From an uncultured bacterium (GTDB taxonomy: Bacteria > Oederibacteriota > Muellerivitia > Muellerivitales > Muellerivitaceae), in assembly GCA_964392085.1 (NCBI GenBank), contig CAYMOV010000002.1, positions 27,314 to 91,313 on the forward strand: a stretch of DNA of 64,000 bases. The letters are read 5' to 3'. Position 1 is the stretch's first letter. Each line of letters starts with the position of its first letter. Made by a program: the position numbers and the translations under genes. A model generated the notes under the pieces. That model saw only the letters and a program-made list of their open reading frames with translations, ran no database searches and was not told the origin of the DNA. Below are positions 9,704 to 45,221 of this stretch, one piece after another.

Positions 9704-9978
9704 GGACGGCCTGGGTCTTTAGGTCATCGTTGCATGGGGCCGGCATGACTTCTTTTATCCTCAAAGACAAGCCTTAACACTGGGCCCGGCTTTTCATTTA
9801 AGCTTAAAACAAGCCATAACCCGTCCCTGATAACGAACTGCTTGTTGGACTAGCGACATTGGAATAACATGGCTGGCAATTAGCTGGTGTTTGAAGGATT
9901 GGGCTTCAGGCGTACGTTCGCCGAATGGAATCTTGATCCGTAAGCATTACATTCTGCAGGCAAAAAGGTCTAGGACGA

Positions 9979-12900
9979 ATGGGTATCCATCCGGGTGGTT
10001 TCACCAAACTGTTTCGGTTAATGATGGCTTTCATGGTTTGCGTGGTCCTCTCGGCACAGGTCGTCCATTGTTTTGCACAGGGAAGGCCCCCTTCCAACAC
10101 TCCCACGCCTTCTATGGACCCCTCGACCGGGCCGTCGAATCTCACCTTAACTTCAGTAGGTACCCGGGTGATTCTATCTTGGGACCCGCCGACGAATGGT
10201 TTATTGACCCAGCCGGATGGGTATCGTTTGTGGCGTGCCGTCCTTCCGGGGGAAGCCTATAACACGATTGATGGGATATCCTCCAACGCCGCGACGGCTT
10301 CCAGTCCGACAGCCCAGGACTCACCGGGATACGGGACTTGGTTCTATAAGGTGGAGGCCTATCACGCCACGGCCTCGGGGAATTATTCCCAGTTCTCGAA
10401 CGTGGTGGGAGTGAACATGGGTCAACATATGACCCCGACTCCCACGGCCGCCTCTGGGTTGGCTTATTCGCTGGTCCAACCCTTGTTGGCGAACACCAGC
10501 ACCTTTACCCGGACTCCGACGAGGACCTTCACGCCGACCGTCAATAGGACCGGCACGGCAACCTTCACGCGCACGAAGACAAACACCCCGACCATCACCC
10601 GAACCGGCACTTTCACCTTCACACCGACGAAGACGGGGACGCCTACCGTCACCCGAACCGGTACTGCAACTTTCACCCTCACGAAGACGTTTTCCCCGAC
10701 GATCACCCGAACCGGAACATTCACCTTCACACCGACGAAGACCGCCACGGTCACCTTCACCCCGACCAAAACCAATACCCCCACCCTCAACCGCACCGGA
10801 ACGCCTACCCCGACCCCGACGAGGACCGGCACCCGGACCAATACTCCCACGCGGACATCGACCAAAACCTTCACTCCCAGCTTTACCCCAACGCGAACAT
10901 TCACATCCACCTCAACCAAGACCTTTACATCCACCTGGACGAGTACCCCGACCCCGTCTTATTCCCCGACGCCGACTTCGACCCCCACCTTTACTTGGAC
11001 TTGGACCTACACTCCGTCGGCCACGTTCAGCGCCACCTCGACGACGACTAGGACAGACACCTCGACCATGACCTTTACCTATACACCGACCCCGAGCGAA
11101 ACATTCACACCTACCGACACTTTCACCTTTACTTCAACATTTACCCTTACCGACACTTTTTCCCCAACGGATACGCCCACCTCTACGCCGACTTCCACCT
11201 GCACAGATACCCCCACTTCAAGTGATACCTTTACCCCGACCTGGACCGATTCGGCGACTCCAACAGGGACCGACACTTTCACTTCGACCTTTTCCTTCAC
11301 ACCGACACCGACCGACACGAATACGGCATCCCCCACCGATACAACTACGAATACCTTCACAGCCACTCCTACTTGGACCATCACGGATACCCCTACCTTA
11401 ACCGCAACCTCCACATGGACAGGAACCGATACGGACACCTTCACGCCTGTCGACACGAGCACGAATACAACAACTCCGACCATTGCCTCTACAGCCACAG
11501 TGACCCCAACCCGTACCGCAACGGCGACCAACACCCCCTCGAATACTATGACCTTGACCCTAACGCCCTCCAATACTCCAGCGGCTTTACCGCCCGGAAC
11601 GAATTTTGTCGGCAACCAGGCCCCGGTGGATGGTTATGACGACTTCCTGATGATGTCCCCGACGAGCCAAGGTAGTGTGCGCTTTACTTCGAGGCAAAGC
11701 GGGACCTTGACGTTTGTCATGGTTTACTTCAGCCAAGCGACGGGATCCCCGTTTTATTACGCGGAAATCCAGGGAGATAACGCCGGTGTTCCGAATGGAA
11801 TTGTTTTAGGTTCCTCTTCGACCTACCTCCTCGGCAGTAACCAATGGATCATGTTGATGTTCGGCTCTACGCATTTGACGGCTGGTACGGTGTACCACTT
11901 GGTCATGCGTGCCGGGACGGTCGACCCCTCGAACTACGCGACTTGGCGGATCGGGACGAGCCCCGGGCATCATTTATTCCCCTATGACCAAGTCGCGGAT
12001 CCAAACCAAGGGACCGCAAAGAATCTTGGTGCTGGGTGGGTGGCCTCGTCGGAACAGCCTGTGTTCGACCTTGTGTTTGGAGCATATCCATATTCTTTTG
12101 ACGGAAATCCATATTCAGTGGGGACCGAATACCAGGTGAACTCCGGTTCATTCTTGGGGGAACGGTTCGTGGTGGCAGCGGCGCCTCTGACACTGCAAGG
12201 GGTGGGTGCTTATGTGAAGAAGGTGGGGTCGCCCACGGCGGATCTCAATTGGCAGATTAAATCGGAATCCAATGGGGCTACTGTGGCTTCAGGGACTCTA
12301 GTTAATGCGGGAGCGGCCCCGGGTACCTACCAATGGGTTGATGCGTCGGCGTCCGTGACGCTGGGAACCGGAATTTACCGATTTGTTTTATTGTCGGGAA
12401 CGGCGCCCGGTTCGGATTATCGGTGGATATCTGGAAATATCGGCGGTGGCGGTGGATTCGGATCAACCCCATTAACCTATGGTGGTGAGACTGCTAGGGC
12501 CGGTCAGTCGTTTGACGGCATCAACTGGTCTGATTTTACGAGTGGCCAGGGATATAACGACGACTTCGCTTTCAGGCTCTTGCAGTCGACGGTTGCCGTG
12601 ACCCCGACACCCACCCCGACGGCGTTGCCGCCCGGGATGGATTTCGTGGGGAACCAGGCGCCTGTGGACGGATATGACGAGTTTCCCATGATGAACCAGG
12701 CCTACCAGGGAAGCATTCGCTTCACGGCCAGGCGAACGGATGCGTTGAATATTGTCTGGCTGTATTTCAGCCAGTCAACGGGCGGCCAATATGTCGTGGA
12801 AATCCAGGCGGACAACGCCGGTGTTCCAAGTGGGACGGCGCTGGCAAGGTCAGTGACTTTTTACGGAAATTACGGATGGACAATGGCGAGTTTCTCGCCC

Positions 12901-14599: not shown

Positions 14600-14623
14600 T
14601 TTCGGTGACTGAAATTTGAACGA
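14600..14623 (+). promoter_or_regulatory. Degenerate copy of the TTTAAATG-N7-TTTGAACGA motif (TTTCGGTG-ACTGAAA-TTTGAACGA) in the AT-rich region upstream of the TPR/Exb operon
   Basis: TTTGAACGA is exact and the upstream half-site is 5/8. Sits about 200-400 bp upstream of the first operon gene. Confidence 0.35.
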
Positions 14624-37474: not shown

Positions 37475-37551
37475 GCCCTCGTAGCTCAGATGGATAGAGC
37501 GACCCTTTCCTAAAGGGTAGGCCACGTGTTCGACTCACGTCGAGGGTACCA
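37475..37551 (+). tRNA. tRNA-Arg: tRNA-Arg (anticodon CCU)
   Basis: Acceptor GCCCTCG/CGAGGGT, D-arm GCTC-AGATGGATA-GAGC, anticodon arm ACCCT-TTCCTAA-AGGGT, T-arm ACGTG-TTCGACT-CACGT, encoded CCA. Confidence 0.8.
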
Positions 37552-39271: not shown

Positions 39272-39970
39272 ATGTCCAACTGGAAGCCTAATCTTCATAT
39301 TGAAATCGAGCAGAAGGAACCCTGGGAAAAGGCGCTGGAATGGGCCAAGTCCAAGCAGGAAATCCTGGCGGTGGCCGCCATCCTGATCCTGTTGGTTTCC
39401 GTGGGCATCCCCTATTACCTTAAGAGCCAAGCCCAAACCGAAAAGGACGCACTGCAAAAACTCAACGTGGCCCAGTATTACCTCGGGTCCAAGGTGGACC
39501 CCAAGAACGGGCCCTTCAAGACCGACGACGAGAAATACAAGAACTCCCTCCAGCAGTTCGAGCAGATCTACCAGCAGGACGCCGGCACCTGGGCCGCCAA
39601 GGCCGCGCAATTTTACGTGGCCAAGTGCCAGTTGATCATGGGCCAGAACTCCCAGGCATACGTATCCTTCGATGAGGCGTCCCAGCGCCTGAAAGGCACC
39701 CCGCTGGGCGAGGCTTCCATGCTGGGTAAGGCCATGGCCTTGGTGATGCAGGAAAAATGGCCGGAAGCCATCGGGGTCTATAACGCCTACTTGACCCAAT
39801 ATCCCAACGGTTTCCTCGTGGAGGAAGCCCGGATGAACATGGCGGACGCTTATAACAAGTCGGGGGACCGGGCGCGGTCCCAGGAGACCCTGGAACAGGT
39901 CGCGAAAGAGGACCCGAAAGGGAATTACGGGCTTGAAGCCGCGCGGCTCCTGAAGAAATCAGCCTCCTAA
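39272..39970 (+). CDS. Single-pass membrane protein with periplasmic TPR-like domain (YfgM/UPF0070-like)
   Basis: N-terminal TM ILAVAAILILLVSVGIPYY, then helical TPR-like repeats (AQFYVAKCQLIMGQNSQAYVSF; EAIGVYNAYLTQYPNG). Confidence 0.55.
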   Translation: MSNWKPNLHIEIEQKEPWEKALEWAKSKQEILAVAAILILLVSVGIPYYLKSQAQTEKDALQKLNVAQYYLGSKVDPKNGPFKTDDEKYKNSLQQFEQIYQQDAGTWAAKAAQFYVAKCQLIMGQNSQAYVSFDEASQRLKGTPLGEASMLGKAMALVMQEKWPEAIGVYNAYLTQYPNGFLVEEARMNMADAYNKSGDRARSQETLEQVAKEDPKGNYGLEAARLLKKSAS

Positions 39971-39989
39971 ACGGTCACCACCCTGACCC

Positions 39990-41147
39990 TCAACCGGCGT
40001 TACCCCAGGCCTGGATCAACCGATCCAGGCCTTTTTCATAGGTCCCCGGCTCGCCCAATAGGCTGATGACCCAAAAGCCATCCACTGGAAAATCAAAAAA
40101 GGCGCCGGGAAGGGCCCAAACGCCCCGATCCAAGAGCCGTCTGGCCATCAATTCGTCCCCCAAGGCGGGATCCACCTGTTGAACCAGGGCCGACCACCCG
40201 CCTTCCGAAGGCCAAAGGCGCCATTGGCTTCCGAGGGGCGCCAAGGCGCGGTCCAACCGACCTTTGTTTTCCAAGACCCGGGTTAGGATGGCTTCCCGTA
40301 CGTCCCCTCCCATCCTCAGGAGATCCGGTAAAGACAACAGCACGGGCGATCCGACCGAAAGGGCCAGGTCGGCCGAGAATTCCAGCCGCTCCTTGGCTTG
40401 TGCCACCAACCGGGTCGGCCCACGGAGGCCCATCCAGGAACACTTTAATTGCGGCAACCCACAGGATTTGGAAAGCCCACCGAGGGTGAAGGTCAAGGCC
40501 TGTGGTTCGAAGGAGACCCGTTTCGGTTTCCCCGTCCAACCGTAATCCCAAAAGACCTCATCGAGGACCAGGGCCCATTGGTTTTTGGCGCAGAGGGAAT
40601 CCAGGAACTTCAAGTCCGATGGGGAGAGGTAGGTGCCGGTCGGGAAATGGGGGGTGATCGCCACCAAGACCCTGGCTTGGTCCTGGGGAATGGACTCCAG
40701 GGCCTGACGATCCAGGGGCCAACCCGGTTTGGCGATCAACGGATAACCCATGGGCTGGAGTCCCTCGGCCTGGGAAAGGTGAGCCAAGAGGGGGTACCCG
40801 GGGGTGGGGAAGAGTACGCCCTGCCCCGGATCCGCCATGAGCTTCATAACCAGTGAATAGGCCTCGCTGGTACCGGAAGTCAGGAAGAGGTCGTCGGGGG
40901 ATTGGGTTTGACCTTGACGTTGATACTCTAGGGCCACAGCTTCCCGTGACGGTCTCAATCCCTGTGGGTCGGGTTCGTAGGGACCGATGGAGATTCGAAG
41001 ATCTTTGAGACCAGACGGATAGGGAAGTCCCACGACCGTCGGATTGGAGGAGGACAAGTCGATCAGGCTGTCCTTTTGGGACTCGATCGCCTGAAAGAGC
41101 TCATTGGGGCTTAAATCCTCCGGATATCTGGATGAAAAGTTCAACAT
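39990..41147 (-). CDS. Pyridoxal-phosphate-dependent aminotransferase (class I/II fold)
   Basis: LTSGTSEAYSLVMKLMADPGQGVLFPTPGYP and the PLP-lysine block FTLGGLSKSCGLPQLKCSWM. Confidence 0.75.
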   Translation of the reverse strand: MLNFSSRYPEDLSPNELFQAIESQKDSLIDLSSSNPTVVGLPYPSGLKDLRISIGPYEPDPQGLRPSREAVALEYQRQGQTQSPDDLFLTSGTSEAYSLVMKLMADPGQGVLFPTPGYPLLAHLSQAEGLQPMGYPLIAKPGWPLDRQALESIPQDQARVLVAITPHFPTGTYLSPSDLKFLDSLCAKNQWALVLDEVFWDYGWTGKPKRVSFEPQALTFTLGGLSKSCGLPQLKCSWMGLRGPTRLVAQAKERLEFSADLALSVGSPVLLSLPDLLRMGGDVREAILTRVLENKGRLDRALAPLGSQWRLWPSEGGWSALVQQVDPALGDELMARRLLDRGVWALPGAFFDFPVDGFWVISLLGEPGTYEKGLDRLIQAWGNAG

Positions 41148-41459
41148 GAAGGCCTCAAGTTAAACTTTAACGCAATGAATATGATTGGGCATTTAGGGGC
41201 TTTTAGGGTTAGTCGACCCCGGGGATCCCCTATGAGATTAGAAATGTTTGGAAAACCGGGCCTTTCAACGGTGAATCGGGGTCCTAAACGAAACCTTTTC
41301 AATAAAACCAACATTTTTGAGGGGCTGAGCAGGTGCAGACCTGCGACTGCCTTGGAGAACTTCGTTTGAGGTCCTGGTCCAACCAGTCCGTTTTGAAACG
41401 CGAAAGGACCGCATTGAGCAAATGAGACGGTACATGCACGTGTTGCTGATGAGAAACAA

Positions 41460-41483
41460 TCGTTCAAAAAAACAGCATTTAAA
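41460..41483 (-). promoter_or_regulatory. Copy A of the bipartite motif (minus-strand reading CCGTTTTTGCATTTAAATG-CTGTTTT-TTTGAACGA), about 300 bp upstream of the minus-strand aminotransferase gene
   Basis: Read directly. Contains the perfect 12-bp palindrome GCATTTAAATGC. Same half-sites and 7-nt spacer as copies B, C and D. Confidence 0.5.
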
Positions 41484-41604
41484 TGCAAAAACGGCCTATC
41501 TGAGTGACCTAAACGGAGTAAGCACCTGAGGAGCCTCAAGGGTTGGACCCAATTGGCTTTAATGCACCTGAAAAATCTATAGTTAAGGTTGTGGTTATAA
41601 AGGT

Positions 41605-42678
41605 TCATTGTAATTTGTCGCGGCTGATGAGTATACGGAAAGTTTGGAGGATGGCCCCATGGGGACCGCCGGTGAGTTTCAAGGCATAGGCCCCAAAGGC
41701 CTTCTTGTGGGCGTCGCGGGCGCCCTTGGAGGCCATTTTGACGTAACTCTCGCTGACCGAGATGCTGGAATGGCCCATCAAGTCCCGGATCTCATACACG
41801 CTTGCGCCCGCCTCGGCTAAGCAAGACCCAAAGGTGTGCCTTAAAACGTGGACTGTGAGCTCGTCCGGGGACTCAAAGCCGGCCCAAAGGGCCGCTTTCT
41901 TGACCCATTGCTCCAGGAAATGCGGATGAATGGGCTTGAGGGAGTTCCTAGGACTGCAAAAAAGGTATGGGGAGGAAGCCAACTTCGCCTCCGTTTTACG
42001 GTCCTGAAGATATTTCTGGACCAGTTTCTTGGTCGCCAGGGTCATGGGAACGGACCGTTCCTTATCGCCCTTACCGATGACGGTGACCAGGTCCTCCGGT
42101 AGTTGGATATCCCGGACCTTTAGGCCGGCGATCTCGGAGACTCGGAGGCCGCACTCGAAGCCCAGGCGTACGGTCAAACTGACCTGGAGATCTTCCAGAA
42201 GGTCCGTCTTGAGCGAAGCCAGGAGGCTTTGGCGTTCCGACATGGGCAAGGGCCTGGGATTGCGCTTGGGCGAGCGGATCGGCAGGTTGTGGAAGACCGC
42301 CGTAGGATCCGTGGCCACCAATTGGCTGGCGGCCATATGGCGGTAAAACGACCGGGTGGTTCCCAGGATCCGTTTCAAGGACCTGGTGGAATAAGGAGGC
42401 CGGGGTTTGCCGGTGGGCGTTTTGCCGGCTTGGGCGAGAAAGCCCGCGAAACGGGTCATGTCCTGGTGGGTCGCCTGGAGGGGCCCTGGAACGGAGGATT
42501 CATCCAAGAAATACTTCAGCACCCGGAGGTCCTGGTGGTAATTGGTTTGGGTATGCTTGGATTTGCATACCGCCAGGAATTCGGAATAGGGTTTGAGGGT
42601 CCGTAAATCCTCAAAGCGCTGGAAGTCGATCGTTTCATCCATGAAACTATTATATCTATAAATATAGAAGATGTTCAA
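41605..42678 (-). CDS. Tyrosine-type site-specific recombinase/integrase (phage integrase family)
   Basis: Catalytic-domain motifs: GLRVSEIAGLKVRDI (Arg box), HVLRHTFGS (HxxR), and the LMGHSSISVSESY region with the catalytic Tyr. N-terminal SAM-like domain. Confidence 0.85.
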   Translation of the reverse strand: MNIFYIYRYNSFMDETIDFQRFEDLRTLKPYSEFLAVCKSKHTQTNYHQDLRVLKYFLDESSVPGPLQATHQDMTRFAGFLAQAGKTPTGKPRPPYSTRSLKRILGTTRSFYRHMAASQLVATDPTAVFHNLPIRSPKRNPRPLPMSERQSLLASLKTDLLEDLQVSLTVRLGFECGLRVSEIAGLKVRDIQLPEDLVTVIGKGDKERSVPMTLATKKLVQKYLQDRKTEAKLASSPYLFCSPRNSLKPIHPHFLEQWVKKAALWAGFESPDELTVHVLRHTFGSCLAEAGASVYEIRDLMGHSSISVSESYVKMASKGARDAHKKAFGAYALKLTGGPHGAILQTFRILISRDKLQ

Positions 42679-42780
42679 GGCTCATTTGGAGGCGTGGAGT
42701 CACAGGATTCCGTTCGATGGGTCCTTGAAGGTTCTTTTCATCTCCGAGCCGGTTCACCTGGAAAAAAACCTAAATTAAGC

Positions 42781-42814
42781 CGAATTTGCGTTTAAATGTC
42801 GTTTATTTGAACGA
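42781..42814 (+). promoter_or_regulatory. Copy B of the bipartite motif (CGAATTTGCG-TTTAAATG-TCGTTTA-TTTGAACGA), about 100 bp from the integrase start codon
   Basis: Read directly. Shares a 16-nt identical stretch CGAATTTGCGTTTAAA with copy C. Confidence 0.5.
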
Positions 42815-43904
42815 TGGTTGGAATCCGTGGATCTGATTACCCTTTTCGATTCAGCCCTGTTTAGTCTGGAGCGGTCAGGATCACGGACCGATTTGACCTT
42901 TCTTGGGACTGTCCGCGCTTCATTAAGCTTTCGGAATGACCCTGGAAGGCCTTGAGGACAACGGATTGCGCCAAGCCAGGGGTTCAAGTGCCCCTTGAAG
43001 GCTTCCAACTGGGATCATCGGGCGTCCCAATGGATTCGGTTCTCGGGGCTTGATCAAGGCTGGGTTACCCGGCCAGCCTGGGACTTCCTGAGGCACCCAA
43101 CCCCGTTCCGATGACGGCTATTTTCCGACCAGACGAAAGATCTTGGCAGGTTGGGACCGCCGAGGGGTCCTTGAGCCGGTTCAAGCCAGGGTTTGGCTTC
43201 AAGTGGTTTACCCTTTGAATGTCCGAGGGCGCCTTGAAGTCGAACTTGAAGGGTTCGAGGGCATTTCTGGGTCCGGCCTGTCCTGGGGTGGTCCCCGCAA
43301 AATGTTGGCTCATGGGTTTGGACTCGTTTCGGCGCCCAGCAAATCCTTGGCTCCCGGCTTCGCAGTCGCTGCCGTCTTCGCCTGGCTATGGCTCCCAGGG
43401 CGTCGGACATGCCGTTTTCGAGAACAGCCCTTTAAAGTATTTGTCATTCCGGAGAGGTATGAGGCTTGCCGGGCATGGCATTGCGAAATCAGGAGCAGAC
43501 CCGACAAGGAACCTGCCATCAGTTGATAAGTGAAAATGTTGCAGCGGCCTTCACCTGGAGGGTTCAAGCGATACCTCATCGCCCTGGGTGGAGCTCGCAG
43601 GGAAATTTACCCAGTTTCCACGCGGTAGGAGACCACCGAGCCTGGTTGTTGTTCCCCGCTTTTTGGGTTGAAGTCAAACTTGAGCAGGACTGGTTCGGCT
43701 TTCAGGGATTCTCCGAGGGTCGATGGGAGACAACCGGTATCCACCCCGAAGACGCGATCGGGTTCGTTTTGGTGGCCGTGGGTCTTTTGAGGCCCGGGAT
43801 TTCGATCAAAGGACGCGTTAGGGTGACTTGAGCGTTGTCGACGGAGGGATGGAAAGGATTAAATGAACCAGGGACTTTGTGTCAGAAGAATCCAGGGAAT
43901 GGGT
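42815..43904. other. About 1.1 kb non-coding, lower-GC stretch between motif copies B and C. Dense in CTTGAAG/TTCAAG-type short repeats, no credible ORF
   Basis: Only short overlapping ORFs on both strands with no recognisable product. Recurrent CCTTGAAGG, GGTTCAAG and GGCTTCAAGTGG motifs. Possible degraded mobile-element cargo, binding-site array or long ncRNA. Confidence 0.4.
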
Positions 43905-43938
43905 CGAATTTGCGTTTAAAGGGCCGAAATTTCAACGA
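43905..43938 (+). promoter_or_regulatory. Copy C of the bipartite motif (CGAATTTGCG-TTTAAAGG-GCCGAAA-TTTCAACGA)
   Basis: Read directly. Same architecture and spacing as copies A, B and D. Confidence 0.5.
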
Positions 43939-44027
43939 CCGATCGGTGGGATGAAGCCGAGGACGCTTCCTGATTTCGCTTCGGATCGGTCCTATTTGGG
44001 ATCCTCCCGTGGCGGATGAGAGTCGAT

Positions 44028-44813
44028 TCATCCAGGGAGGGTGCCCACGAACTCGTTCAGAAGGTTTTGAAATTGGTCCGGCGATTCCCAGGGCACCAGA
44101 TGGCCGACTTGATCCAACACTTGAAGTCGGATCTTGGAACTGAGCGAGGCGTTCTGGCGGGCCTCGTCGGTTGAAACGAACTGATCCTCGGCGCCGGCCA
44201 GCCAGAGGGCCGGGACCCGAAGGACCCTCAGGGTCTCGGATTGGTCCCGTCGGACCGCCATGGCCCGTTGCGCGCCCGCGATGGCTCGGGGCGGGGCTAG
44301 ACGGACGCAGTCCCGGACCCGTTCCAGCAACGCGGGGTTCCCTTGGATCGTCGTGGCCCCCAGTAAATTGTTCGGCATGACCTTCAACAGGAAACCGGTC
44401 CCCTCCCGTTCGACCTTGTCGGCGACCTCCAACCTCCTGAACCGGGCGGTCTCCTCATCCAGCCCGGCCTTGGTTCCGGCGAGCAACAGCCCCTCGACCT
44501 GGTCCGGAAAGAGCCGGACGTACTCCAGGGCTCCATAACCTCCCATGGAGACCCCCCCCAGGACCACTTTTTGGCGGACACCCAAGTCCTCTAGGGCCCG
44601 TTGGAGGCTACGAGCGAAGTCTTCCAGCGTCCATCCTGCCTCCGCCCAGGGGGTGGAACCGAATCCCGGGAAGTCCGGGAGGATCAGTTGGGTTTGAGGC
44701 GGGGGGAGAAGCTTGTCATAAAGGATATGGGACAGGGGATAGGCGTGGAGCAGGACAAGGGGTCGGCCTTCCCCGCGGGCCTGGACCTGGATTTTTAGGT
44801 TGGAAGCGGACAT
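44028..44813 (-). CDS. Alpha/beta-fold hydrolase
   Basis: LVLLHAYPLSHILY, nucleophile elbow GGVSMGG, and a C-terminal His (DQVGHLVPWESP). 261 aa. Confidence 0.75.
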   Translation of the reverse strand: MSASNLKIQVQARGEGRPLVLLHAYPLSHILYDKLLPPPQTQLILPDFPGFGSTPWAEAGWTLEDFARSLQRALEDLGVRQKVVLGGVSMGGYGALEYVRLFPDQVEGLLLAGTKAGLDEETARFRRLEVADKVEREGTGFLLKVMPNNLLGATTIQGNPALLERVRDCVRLAPPRAIAGAQRAMAVRRDQSETLRVLRVPALWLAGAEDQFVSTDEARQNASLSSKIRLQVLDQVGHLVPWESPDQFQNLLNEFVGTLPG

Positions 44814-44883
44814 GTCGGGACCTCGTTCCGATCGATCTTAAGCGTTTTCGTGGAAGGTGTCATGATCAAGGTCCCAAAACAAT

Positions 44884-44917
44884 CTTCGAAAAAAACAGTG
44901 TTTAAATGTAAATTCGC
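44884..44917 (-). promoter_or_regulatory. Copy D of the bipartite motif (minus-strand reading CGAATTTACA-TTTAAACA-CTGTTTT-TTTCGAAGA), about 70 bp upstream of the alpha/beta-hydrolase start
   Basis: Read directly. Weaker second half-site. Confidence 0.45.
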
Positions 44918-45221
44918 CACTTCCGCCTGGTTTTTAAATATGATTTTTAAAATCACCCAGCAACGGATTCGGTTCAAACCCTTTCACTTAAGGATGCCGG
45001 GTGAAGCGTCTGATGAACCTGAAGTTAGCCTGGTAAACCTCAAATCAAGCGGGTTAGATGGCCAGAAGCCCTAGATCACCCATCGCCAAGCCCATCGAAG
45101 TCCAAACGGGAAGTGGAACCTCCTGAAGGGGGCTGGAGACTCCGGCGATAGTCCCCCTAGGGAGTGGGTCTTGATAAGACCATGGAGTCCCAAACGGATG
45201 ACAGGGAAAGGGTTATGTCGT

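What the first reader, a model, noticed from the sequence alone, without database searches (positions are those of the whole stretch)
41460..44917. Four copies of a 33-bp bipartite motif (CGAATTTGCG-TTTAAATG-N7-TTTGAACGA) arranged as two inverted pairs around the integrase island
Copies sit at 41460-41483 (minus), 42781-42814 (plus), 43905-43938 (plus) and 44884-44917 (minus). All share both half-sites with an identical 7-nt spacer. Copies B and C share 16 identical nucleotides. The layout is rcM, integrase, M, 1.1 kb non-coding, M, alpha/beta hydrolase, rcM. In orientation, copy A points at the aminotransferase start and copy D at the hydrolase start. Copy B lies about 100 bp from the integrase start. 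A degenerate copy (14600-14623) sits upstream of the TPR/Exb operon. Candidate explanations are a lineage-specific promoter, a repressor operator, or terminal/arm sites of a decayed integrative element.
Basis: seen in the sequence. Interest (0 to 1): 0.65.

Follow-up and report, generated by a model that had tools for sequence, protein, structure and literature searches.

The report
Conserved sites bracketing a Xer recombinase gene
The four repeats are real, but they are not a promoter or the ends of a dead island: they are extra copies of a conserved pair of about 34-bp sites that flank a resident Xer-type recombinase gene and its dif-like site where the two chromosome arms converge in an uncultured phylum (FCPU426), and phages carry the same site.

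Summary
All four copies exist and are far beyond chance. The claimed fifth copy at 14600 is only a 9-nt half match. The "integrase island" is not an island. The gene is a XerD/XerA-like tyrosine recombinase with all catalytic residues. It keeps a fixed position (2-hydroxyacid dehydrogenase, hydrolase, xer, aminotransferase | convergent TPR gene) in more than 20 FCPU426 loci, at the point where genes of the two arms converge.

Nearly every locus has one motif copy 111-167 nt after the xer stop and one inverted copy upstream. An unbiased metagenome scan found strong copies only beside this gene, at contig edges, or in two related phage contigs. The motif is therefore not a general promoter.

A second element turned up: a 26-28 bp dif-like palindrome just before the xer start codon.

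In this genome, B and C split the ancestral upstream site around a 1.1-kb insert. D is a lineage-specific copy of the A-type site plus a promoter, placed ahead of the hydrolase.

Best reading: these are Xer-family recombinase binding or attachment sites that bracket a dif-xer module. Their host role is unsettled. A polar terminus element bound by another protein is the main rival.

The parts
41460..41493 (-). Copy A, the ancestral downstream bracket site (Dn). Sequence: CGTTTTTGCATTTAAA-TGCTG-TTTTTTTGAACGA; conservation extends over 41455-41498.
   Evidence: 66 bits, the best site in the window. Positional orthologues lie 111-167 nt after the xer stop in 19 of 20 loci tabulated, and in L477 and L478.
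41605..42642 (-). xer: a XerD/XerA-like tyrosine recombinase of 345 aa (ATG at 42642).
   Evidence: Pfam Phage_int_SAM_1 plus Phage_integrase. Scores fall below the NCBIfam XerC/XerD/XerA cut-offs. Best PDB matches are XerD 1a0p and XerA-type 4a8e, E about 3e-23, and the R-K-H-R-H-Y residues align. The family is tight, with about 110 members at 52-95% identity.
42646..42671 (-). dif-like palindrome directly before the xer start codon (TCTTCTATAT-TTATAG-ATATAATAGT). It is degenerate in this clade and perfect in most others. It overlaps a promoter-like site TTGAAC-N18-TATAAT at 42678-42649.
   Evidence: Searches show one copy per locus, 26-48 nt before the xer start. Arms are 10-11 bp, the spacer is mostly TTACAG, and the outer arm bases co-vary. 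One search gives the promoter-like match.
42781..42814 (+). Copy B, the xer-proximal half of the split ancestral upstream bracket site (U). It lies 137 nt before the xer ATG.
   Evidence: U lies 119-154 nt before the xer start in most loci.
42815..43904 (.). 1.1-kb insert bounded by the direct copies B and C. No supported gene, and it evolves fast.
   Evidence: The ORFs have no Pfam hit. Similarity is found only to conspecific contigs, and to L081 over the ends at about 66-78% nt. No similarity to the phage contigs.
43905..43938 (+). Copy C, the hydrolase-proximal half of the split upstream site. It lies about 90 nt after the hydrolase stop and has a degenerate right arm.
   Evidence: In other loci U lies about 55-65 nt after the hydrolase stop.
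44028..44813 (-). alpha/beta hydrolase gene, a syntenic resident gene and not cargo.
44835..44863 (-). Promoter-like site ATGACA-N17-TAAGAT, 22 nt downstream of copy D. It resembles the promoter-like block that follows the Dn site in other genomes.
   Evidence: plus direct comparison of sequences.
44884..44917 (-). Copy D, a lineage-specific extra copy of the A/Dn type lying in an enlarged hadh-hyd spacer (434 nt here, 70-120 nt in other genomes).
   Evidence: No such copy exists in the hadh-hyd spacers of L082, L093, L103 or L106.
39990..41147 (-). Aminotransferase gene downstream of A. Its conserved leader TTAAAGTTTAACTTGAGG lies at 41152-41170.
40007..40032 (+). Strong terminator-like hairpin at the point where + strand genes (left 40 kb) meet - strand genes (right 24 kb).
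   Evidence: The same convergence is seen in L082, L264, L265, L475, L476 and L478.

Best explanation
The motif is the outer cis-element of a phylum-wide 'xer module'.

Shown: in candidate division FCPU426, a catalytically intact XerD/XerA-like recombinase gene sits at a fixed, vertically inherited position where the genes of the two chromosome arms converge. A 26-28 bp dif-like palindrome lies just before its start codon. One copy of the 31-34 bp motif lies on each side in inverted orientation, with the TTTGCATTTAAA half facing inward. The motif is a duplex element with no structure of its own. It has two conserved AT-rich blocks around a 5-nt variable centre, and can be parsed as 11-6-11, the dif geometry. 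Two related phage contigs carry a full-length copy. In this genome the ancestral upstream site is split into two direct copies (B, C) that bound a 1.1-kb insert exactly.

Inferred: the motif is a binding or strand-exchange site for Xer-family tyrosine recombinases, either the host enzyme or its phage relatives at 39-45% identity. It serves as an attachment site, while the palindrome is the more likely dimer-resolution core. A and the B+C parent are the two ancestral bracket sites. B and C are the attL/attR-like products of an old integration. D is a later copy of the A-type site together with its adjacent promoter.

The different centres (TGCTG, TGTCG, GGGCC, CACTG) would keep the four copies from recombining with each other. 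Why the host keeps two outward-facing copies is not settled.
For: Linkage to xer. The motif flanks xer in the same inverted arrangement in L001, L002, L082, L085, L093, L103, L106, L150, L165, L175, L265, L266, L475, L476 and L477. This holds in L477, where the upstream genes differ.

Unbiased scan. A metagenome scan returned 94 stretches. The roughly two dozen with high PWM scores are in 41-57% GC contigs. About 20 of these are next to a xer homologue and the rest are at contig edges or in phage contigs. The low scorers are chance hits in AT-rich DNA. No other copy occurs in 64 kb or in the flanks of other loci.

Conservation. Motif columns are at least 90% conserved while the surrounding spacer is not alignable. 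There is a 5-nt low-information centre between two high-information blocks.

No self-structure. Fold z-scores run from -0.9 to +0.7.

Phage copies. L130 and L122 (endolysin, ParB-like protein, PHROG families; about 70% aa to each other) carry full-length copies with centres TGCTG and CGCTG. Their left flanks are homologous, so the copy is internal to the phage.

Phage integrases. The nearest relatives of the host enzyme outside the family are phage integrases. Phage contig L182 holds a motif-like sequence that 0 of 200 shuffles reach.

The insert. It is bounded by B and C at the position of U.

Precedent. Single-recombinase Xer genes sit next to their sites (XerS/difSL, XerH/difH; PMC5357621), and mobile elements carry dif mimics (LME-1; PMC9765430).
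Against: No binding or cleavage data exist, so nothing shows which protein binds the motif.

The dif-like palindrome is a more natural target for a XerD/XerA-like enzyme. Its inner bases match the archaeal dif TTTTGATATAA-TGTACC-TTATATGACAA (PMC11840125). It is retained in L264, where the Dn copy is deleted and U is degenerate.

An inverted pair around the gene has no obvious rationale for a recombination site, and no inverted xer orientation was seen in more than 20 loci.

The dyad symmetry of the motif arms is weak (6-8 of 12-15 positions) and sits in AT-rich sequence.

B and C share an identical left arm, including the rare GCG variant. That fits a duplication or homologous (Campbell-type) integration as well as it fits site-specific exchange.

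The phage contigs are incomplete, so their integrase and real attP are unknown. The L182 match lies inside an ORF.
Confidence: 0.45

Rival explanations
1. Polar terminus element bound by some other protein. The two outward-facing copies mark the borders of the dif-xer region and stop or unload something that arrives along each chromosome arm. Candidates are a Ter-like replication-fork barrier, an SMC roadblock or unloading site, or an FtsK stop. Phages merely use the unique conserved sequence as attB.
For: The arrangement around the dif-like palindrome is symmetric and inverted, at the gene-convergence point. The site is asymmetric and bipartite, about 31 bp, with one or two copies per genome and only at this locus. 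The palindrome and not the motif is universal. [quoted passage not shown] From my own knowledge, Tus-Ter and RTP-Ter sites are asymmetric 23-30 bp sites in inverted groups.
Against: No candidate binding protein is linked to the locus. Copy D has the 'wrong' polarity on its side. The terminus assignment rests on gene orientation alone. The GC skew switches sign there, but in the direction expected from the coding strand and not from a classical terminus. The phage copies and the site-bounded insert need a separate explanation.
Confidence: 0.2
2. [quoted passage not shown] The palindrome at the xer promoter is only an operator.
For: The motif is nearly invariant across genomes, whereas the outer arms of the palindrome vary. 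It parses as 11-6-11, with a right arm TTATTTGAAMG that resembles XerD-side arms (TTATGTTAAAT, from the review PMC5357621). Phages mimic the motif and not the palindrome. The insert is bounded by motif copies.
Against: L264 keeps xer and a perfect palindrome but has lost Dn. A single recombinase is expected to use a near-palindromic site. Two inverted dif sites 1.4 kb apart are unexplained. The palindrome in L476 is a hybrid of two arm classes joined at the spacer, which suggests strand exchange happens there.
Confidence: 0.13
3. Terminal inverted repeats of a once-mobile, now domesticated xer-dif cassette.
For: Imperfect inverted repeats of 34-44 bp flank a single recombinase gene in a 1.3-1.9 kb unit. 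The unit is kept intact in L477 despite different upstream genes.
Against: There is one copy per genome in a conserved context across the phylum. Conservation is too deep for a relic. Single copies in phages and the B/C/D copies are not paired ends. Known tyrosine-recombinase elements do not need such terminal repeats (my own knowledge).
Confidence: 0.08
4. Transcriptional element (operator, activator site or UP-like element) for the flanking genes.
For: A and D are each followed within 20-40 nt by promoter-like hexamers aimed at the aminotransferase and the hydrolase. The phage copies lie 76-145 nt upstream of a gene.
Against: The upstream copy points into the 3' end of the hydrolase gene and has no promoter-like block after it. 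The motif occurs nowhere else in 64 kb. No sigma-70-like hexamer pair lies inside it. Conservation is far above that of ordinary promoters.
Confidence: 0.07
5. Invertible switch (inverton or shufflon). The recombinase flips the segments between inverted copies (A-B, C-D, B-D).
For: Inverted copies flank xer and, in this genome, the hydrolase gene. The layout resembles recombinase-inside-segment switches such as Hin/hix (my own knowledge).
Against: xer has the same orientation relative to hyd and amt in all loci, 0 inverted of more than 20. The centres of partner sites differ within each genome. Assemblies show only the majority orientation, so rare flipping is not excluded.
Confidence: 0.04

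Closest known systems
XerS/difSL (streptococci, lactococci) and XerH/difH (Helicobacter, Campylobacter) single-recombinase modules (PMC5357621, PMC2965235)
   Same: One long Xer-type recombinase (345 aa here, against 354-362 aa). Its cognate site lies next to the gene as a module. The site is atypical and AT-rich, about 31 bp, and its right arm resembles difSL TTTTCTTGAAA.
   Different: The protein is closer to XerD/XerA than to XerS or XerH. There are two kinds of site here: a dif-like palindrome and the bracket motif. The motif occurs twice, in inverted orientation, around the gene.
Archaeal XerA/dif (PMC11840125, PMC5357621)
   Same: A single recombinase. The 11-6-11 palindrome has TATAA-N6-TTATA inner bases like the palindrome found before xer. 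In haloarchaea a dif-like site lies upstream of the xerA operon. Sequences that flank dif carry a separate function as an SMC boundary.
   Different: This is a bacterial phylum. The bracket motif has no described archaeal counterpart.
XerL/dif and the LME-1 element of Legionella; IMEX elements in general (PMC9765430, PMC5357621)
   Same: Mobile elements carry a mimic of a chromosomal Xer-type site, and integration leaves two site copies, one of them modified. This parallels the phage contigs L130/L122 and the B-insert-C arrangement.
   Different: Here the mimicked site is the bracket motif and not the dif-like palindrome. Use of the host enzyme is not shown. Related phages (L182, L183) encode their own Xer-like integrase.
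XerD binding sites (XDS) that unload SMC near the B. subtilis terminus (Karaboja 2021, as cited in PMC10945525 and PMC11840125)
   Same: Extra terminus-proximal sites, distinct from dif, tied to a Xer protein.
   Different: I could not read the primary paper, so sequence and orientation rules could not be compared. No SMC data exist for FCPU426.
pdif modules of Acinetobacter plasmids (my own knowledge, not checked here)
   Same: Genes are flanked by Xer-type sites in inverted orientation, as with A-xer-B and C-hyd-D.
   Different: Those are plasmid-borne, mobile cargo modules bounded by canonical XerC/XerD sites. Here the flanked genes are syntenic chromosomal residents.
Tus-Ter and RTP-Ter replication fork traps (my own knowledge)
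   Same: Asymmetric 23-30 bp sites in inverted orientation around the terminus, close to a linked gene.
   Different: No terminator protein homologue was identified, and polarity and fork arrest are untested.

Membership tests
Single-recombinase Xer/dif module | Tyrosine recombinase with the Xer two-domain architecture and an intact catalytic R-K-H-R-H-Y set | tested here: met
   Pfam SAM_1 plus Phage_integrase. The alignment to XerD 1a0p pairs GLRVSE, GKGdKER, HvLRH, GHS and Y. These residues are invariant across 33 family members.
Single-recombinase Xer/dif module | Membership in a curated Xer family (XerC, XerD, XerA, XerS) | tested here: not met
   NCBIfam scores of 132-157 bits fall below the cut-offs of 220-335. 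XerS matches only over the C-terminal half.
Single-recombinase Xer/dif module | Cognate site genetically linked to the recombinase gene | tested here: met
   The palindrome lies 26-48 nt before the start codon. The motif lies 111-167 nt after the stop and 119-487 nt before the start.
Single-recombinase Xer/dif module | Site built as two partly symmetric arms of about 11 bp around a 6-8 bp (up to 11 bp) centre | tested here: inconclusive
   The palindrome meets this fully. The motif can be parsed as 11-6-11, but its arm symmetry is weak (6-8 of 12-15 positions) in AT-rich sequence.
Single-recombinase Xer/dif module | Location at the replication terminus | tested here: inconclusive
   Genes converge 1.5 kb from copy A in the window and in 6 or more other loci. 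The GC-skew sign change is confounded with the coding strand, and the KOPS-type test is uninformative. No complete genome was available.
Single-recombinase Xer/dif module | Only Xer in the genome, and dimer resolution depends on it | not testable with these tools
   No whole FCPU426 genome could be searched, and no genetics are available.
IMEX / phage attachment site | A mobile element carries a copy of the chromosomal site | tested here: met
   Phage contigs L130 and L122 carry a full-length copy, internal to the phage DNA.
IMEX / phage attachment site | Integrated element flanked by two direct site copies at the position of the empty site | tested here: met
   B and C are direct copies. They occupy the xer-side and hyd-side positions of the single U site of other genomes and bound a 1.1-kb insert. 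The insert itself has no recognisable phage content.
IMEX / phage attachment site | Observed attL/attR junctions of an identifiable prophage, or an excised circle | not tested
   This needs read-level data and complete phage genomes.
Sigma-70 type or lineage-wide promoter | Recurs upstream of many genes, with a hexamer pair at 16-18 nt spacing | tested here: not met
   Four copies in 64 kb, all at this locus. No promoter-like pair lies inside the motif. The metagenome copies occur only beside xer or in the phage contigs.
Integrative island with terminal att repeats | Variable presence between relatives, with foreign cargo between direct repeats | tested here: not met
   xer and hyd are syntenic in nearly all relatives. 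Only the 1.1-kb B-C insert, and D, are lineage-specific.
Inverton / shufflon | Both orientations of the flanked segment occur | tested here: not met
   0 of more than 20 loci are inverted. This is assembly-level evidence only.
Folded-strand recombination site, intrinsic terminator, or RNA motif | Stable secondary structure or an Rfam match | tested here: not met
   Fold z-scores run from -0.9 to +0.7. There are no Rfam hits in the region.

The most novel reading that the evidence does not exclude
The two outward-facing bracket sites are polar terminus elements: a replication-fork trap, or an SMC/FtsK stop or unloading site, placed symmetrically within 1.5 kb around dif. That would be the first such system defined by sequence in an uncultured phylum, and it would be unrelated to Tus-Ter, RTP-Ter or matS. 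Temperate phages would have adopted the unique site as their attachment site.
Probability: 0.15. Interest if true: 0.85.

Novelty: new variant of a known kind. Interest (0 to 1): 0.58.

Why it matters
Xer/dif systems are known in detail for only a few lineages (XerCD, XerS, XerH, XerA, XerL). This locus gives a sequence-level description of the system in candidate division FCPU426. The gene, a dif-like palindrome in its promoter, and a previously undescribed pair of conserved bracket sites are all defined well enough for direct biochemical tests with a protein that can be synthesised.

If the bracket sites are recombination or attachment sites, they show how phages target the terminus region of an uncultured phylum, and they supply a unique single-locus marker for it. 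If they are polar barriers, they would be a new kind of terminus organiser.

For annotation, the practical lesson is that this 'phage integrase' is a housekeeping gene and not evidence of an island.

Tried and rejected
- **Fifth copy at 14600.** Only a right-half 9-mer is present. Rejected.
- **tRNA-linked att site.** The nearest tRNA is 4 kb away, and Rfam finds nothing in the region.
- **Biotin-operon or BirA-operator idea** (aminotransferase plus hydrolase). The NCBIfam hits are not BioF or BioH equivalogs. Dropped.
- **Sigma-54, sigma-28, ECF or Bacteroidetes-type promoter readings, and an IHF site.** Spacing and sequence do not fit on inspection. The sigma-70 scan finds promoters only beside the motif and not in it.
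- **KOPS/SRS and unbiased skewed 7/8-mers.** Fully confounded with gene orientation.
- **Origin of the 1.1-kb insert and of the D spacer.** blastn and tblastx against all fetched loci and the rest of the window found only conspecific contigs.
- **IMG/VR scans for the motif (two patterns) and for the palindrome.** Only chance hits in AT-rich contigs.
- **Relatives of the phage integrase P0109 in IMG/VR.** Nothing closer than 32%.
- **L266 as a test of 'motif follows xer, not amt'.** Not clean, because the amt leader is still present.
- **RNA-level pairing of the inverted copies and hairpin or terminator readings.** No structure signal, the centres are not complementary, and single copies occur in phages.
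- **Karaboja 2021 (XDS paper).** It is not held in the library.

Full report
**Observation.** The region 41300-45100 was read directly.
- The four copies are A 41460-41493 (-), B 42781-42814 (+), C 43905-43938 (+) and D 44884-44917 (-).
- A PWM built from the four copies scores them at 45-54 bits. The next site in 64 kb scores 17.8, and the best shuffle value is 16.
- The repeat finder reports A/B as a 44-nt inverted repeat (82%), A/D as a 36-nt direct repeat (83%) and B/C as a 34-nt direct repeat (79%, with 16 identical bases).
- The two conserved blocks are the same distance apart in all copies, but the bases between them differ: TGCTG, TGTCG, GGGCC and CACTG.
- The proposed fifth copy at 14600 has only AAATTTGAACGAC and no left block. 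It does not rank in either PWM scan.

**Not an island.**
- The 'integrase' (41605-42642, -) has the Xer architecture. It scores best against XerC/XerD/XerA models but below their cut-offs. It aligns to XerD with all catalytic residues in place.
- A protein search found a tight family of about 110 clusters at 52-95% identity, then a gap.
- Genome contigs name the lineage as candidate division FCPU426.
- In every locus with enough flank, the order is 2-hydroxyacid dehydrogenase, alpha/beta hydrolase, xer, aminotransferase, then a TPR gene on the other strand.
- xer is better conserved (57-63%) than its neighbours (40-45%).
- Nearly all genes in the 40 kb to the left are on the + strand, and nearly all in the 24 kb to the right are on the - strand. 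They meet at a strong hairpin at 40007-40032, 1.5 kb from copy A. The same convergence is seen in other species.
- This is terminus-like, but it is not proven. The GC skew changes sign there in the direction expected from the coding strand, and oligomer skews are confounded with gene orientation.

**The motif belongs to the xer gene.**
- Scanning related loci shows one copy 111-167 nt after the xer stop on the gene's strand (Dn, the counterpart of A). A second copy lies upstream on the opposite strand (U), usually 119-154 nt before the start and about 55-65 nt after the hydrolase stop.
- Dn is present in 19 of the 20 loci tabulated, and also in L477 and L478. U is present in most, often with a degenerate right arm.
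- A context-blind scan of 241 million metagenome records with a 27-nt degenerate pattern gave 94 stretches.
  - All high-scoring ones are in 41-57% GC contigs.
  - About 20 sit beside a xer homologue.
  - A few are at contig ends.
  - Two are phage contigs.
  - The rest are low-scoring chance matches in AT-rich DNA.
- No further copy above 4 bits exists in the window or in +/-6-10 kb of ten other loci.
- L477 has other genes upstream yet keeps U, palindrome, xer and Dn.
- These results exclude a general promoter and tie the element to the recombinase module.

**Anatomy.**
- Across 29 non-redundant copies, information content is high over TTTGCATTTAAA, low over the next 5 bases, and high again over TTTWTTTGAAMGAT.
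- The element can be read as 11-6-11 (TTGCATTTAAA / NNNNNT / TTWTTTGAAMG), which is the dif geometry. Arm symmetry is weak.
- It has no self-structure. The sigma-70 scan finds no hexamer pair inside it.
- Promoter-like blocks lie just downstream of Dn (TTGTAC-N15/16-TCAAAAT in most genomes) and of D (ATGACA-N17-TAAGAT). No such block follows U.

**A second element.**
- Aligning the U-to-xer spacers revealed a 26-28 bp palindrome 26-48 nt before the xer start in almost every locus. It has 10-11 bp arms with inner (C/T)ATAA and TTAT(G/A) and a 6-bp spacer, mostly TTACAG.
- The outer arm bases differ between lineages but stay complementary. The classes are ACTTCTATAA, TTCGGTATAA, ATTAGTATAA, TTTCATATAA, TCTAGCATAA and TTTGGGATAA.
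- It overlaps a conserved -35/-10-like pair, so it acts at the DNA level.
- It closely resembles canonical and archaeal dif, for example T. kodakarensis TTTTGATATAA-TGTACC-TTATATGACAA (PMC11840125).
- In L476 the left arm is of one class and the right arm of another, as expected after strand exchange in the spacer.
- In the window it lies at 42646-42671 and is less perfect (7 of 10 arm positions pair).
- L264, the most divergent member (54%, 31% GC), keeps xer and a perfect palindrome. It has lost the Dn region and has a degenerate U.
- I therefore regard the palindrome as the more probable dimer-resolution core.

**Evidence that the motif is used in recombination.**
- Contigs L130 and L122 encode an endolysin, a ParB-like protein and PHROG families, and are about 70% identical in protein. 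Each has a full-length Dn-like copy (centres TGCTG and CGCTG, the former identical to copy A). Their left flanks are homologous, so the copy is internal to the phage. They have no palindrome.
- The closest relatives of the host enzyme outside its family (39-45%) are integrases in phage-like contigs.
- One of those contigs, L182, holds a motif-like sequence (left arm 10 of 11, then a T-run) that none of 200 shuffles reach. It lies inside an ORF.
- In this genome and its close relatives (L081, L118, L164), C occupies the hydrolase-side position of U and B the xer-side position. A 1.1-kb fast-evolving segment with no supported gene lies exactly between them.
  - C keeps a degenerate right arm.
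  - B has a consensus-type right arm.
  - This pattern fits attL/attR hybrids.
  - However, the identical left arms, including a rare GCG variant, also fit a duplication or a homologous single crossover.
- D lies in an enlarged hadh-hyd spacer (434 nt against 70-120 nt). It resembles A in centre and flank and carries a copy of the adjacent promoter-like block. It is a lineage-specific addition.

**Weighing the readings.**
- The data firmly support three points. The motif is a conserved duplex protein-binding element. It is specific to the xer module and present as an outward-facing pair. It recurs in phages and at the borders of an insert.
- The protein that binds it is not shown.
- I favour Xer-family recombinases (host or phage) using it as a binding or attachment site that brackets the true dif. 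Confidence is 0.45.
- The main rival is a polar terminus element bound by another factor (0.2). This explains the symmetric orientation and the universality of the palindrome better, but it has no candidate protein.
- The motif being dif itself (0.13) is weakened by L264 and by the palindrome.
- Relic terminal repeats, a transcriptional element and an invertible switch each conflict with one or more tested features.

**Comparison with known systems.** The module works like the single-recombinase Xer systems in which the gene and site form a unit (XerS/difSL, XerH/difH, XerA, XerL; PMC5357621, PMC9765430). The protein fails the curated thresholds of all named Xer families. The paired bracket motif is not described for any of them in the papers I could search. 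I rate it a new variant of a known kind.

Noticed in passing
window 42646-42671 (-); L106 1681-1706; L150 5404-5429; L264 9943-9968 and others: A dif-like palindrome (10-11 bp arms, spacer mostly TTACAG) lies 26-48 nt before the xer start in almost all FCPU426 loci. The outer arm bases co-vary between lineages. It overlaps a conserved -35/-10-like pair (window 42678-42649).
   Followed up: yes
L476 about 9965-9995: Here the palindrome is a hybrid. The left arm CTTTCTATAA is of one class and the right arm TTATACCGAA of another, joined at the TTACAG spacer. This is what past strand exchange between two different sites would leave.
   Followed up: partly
L130 686-729 (+); L122 304-347 (+): Two related phage-like contigs (GH108 endolysin, ParB-like protein, PHROG 3193 and 19005) carry a full-length copy of the motif in an AT-rich intergenic region upstream of a PHROG-3193 gene. 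No integrase is visible on the partial contigs.
   Followed up: partly
L182 2795-3745 and 1831-1874 (-); L183 552-1523: Phage-like contigs encode integrases 39-45% identical to the host Xer. L182 also has a motif-like sequence (TTTTGCATTTGAA-GGCCG-TTTTTTGG) inside a low-complexity part of an ORF, which 0 of 200 shuffles reach.
   Followed up: partly
window 39970-40040: This is the exact convergence point of + strand and - strand gene arrays. An 11-bp-stem GC-rich hairpin lies between the TPR gene and the aminotransferase gene. The cumulative GC skew has its minimum near here, the opposite of a classical terminus, probably because the coding strand is C-rich.
   Followed up: partly
window 41152-41170 (-); 43232-43252; also 42983-43005 and 43665-43690: A conserved leader TTAAAGTTTNACTTGARGG lies directly before the aminotransferase start in all loci. 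Weaker look-alikes occur inside the 1.1-kb B-C insert. It is not a general motif in the window (3 matches).
   Followed up: partly
window 41400-41455 (-), and the xer-amt spacers of other loci (alignment): Further conserved blocks surround Dn. TTAAGT-N4-TTTWTCAG lies about 85 nt before it. GCAATCTTTGTAC...AAAACGCTCAAAAT lies after it and is a likely aminotransferase promoter.
   Followed up: no
L266 10600-20597: On one 918-kb contig the aminotransferase ORF is gone. A DDE transposase follows, and the block that normally lies upstream of xer (IPPT, NUDIX, S49 peptidase, tricorn-like) sits downstream in inverted orientation. This is a rearrangement pivoting at this locus.
   Followed up: no
L266 10001-10597; L475 9545-10573: xer is called as truncated or split genes on long-read-type contigs. 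This probably reflects frameshift errors and not pseudogenes, because U, the palindrome and Dn are intact.
   Followed up: no
L082 9588-9956; L165 and L081 upstream spacers: In some lineages the U-to-xer spacer is 464-487 nt instead of about 120-155 nt. In L082 it holds a 122-aa ORF with no family match.
   Followed up: no
window 41247-41280 (-): A weak fifth PWM hit (16-18 bits, at the edge of the shuffle range) lies in the A-to-aminotransferase spacer. It is not conserved in other loci.
   Followed up: partly
window 37475-37551: ARAGORN calls tRNA-Arg(CCT), but it is not reported by the Rfam gathering-threshold scan that found the two tRNA-Pro genes.
   Followed up: no
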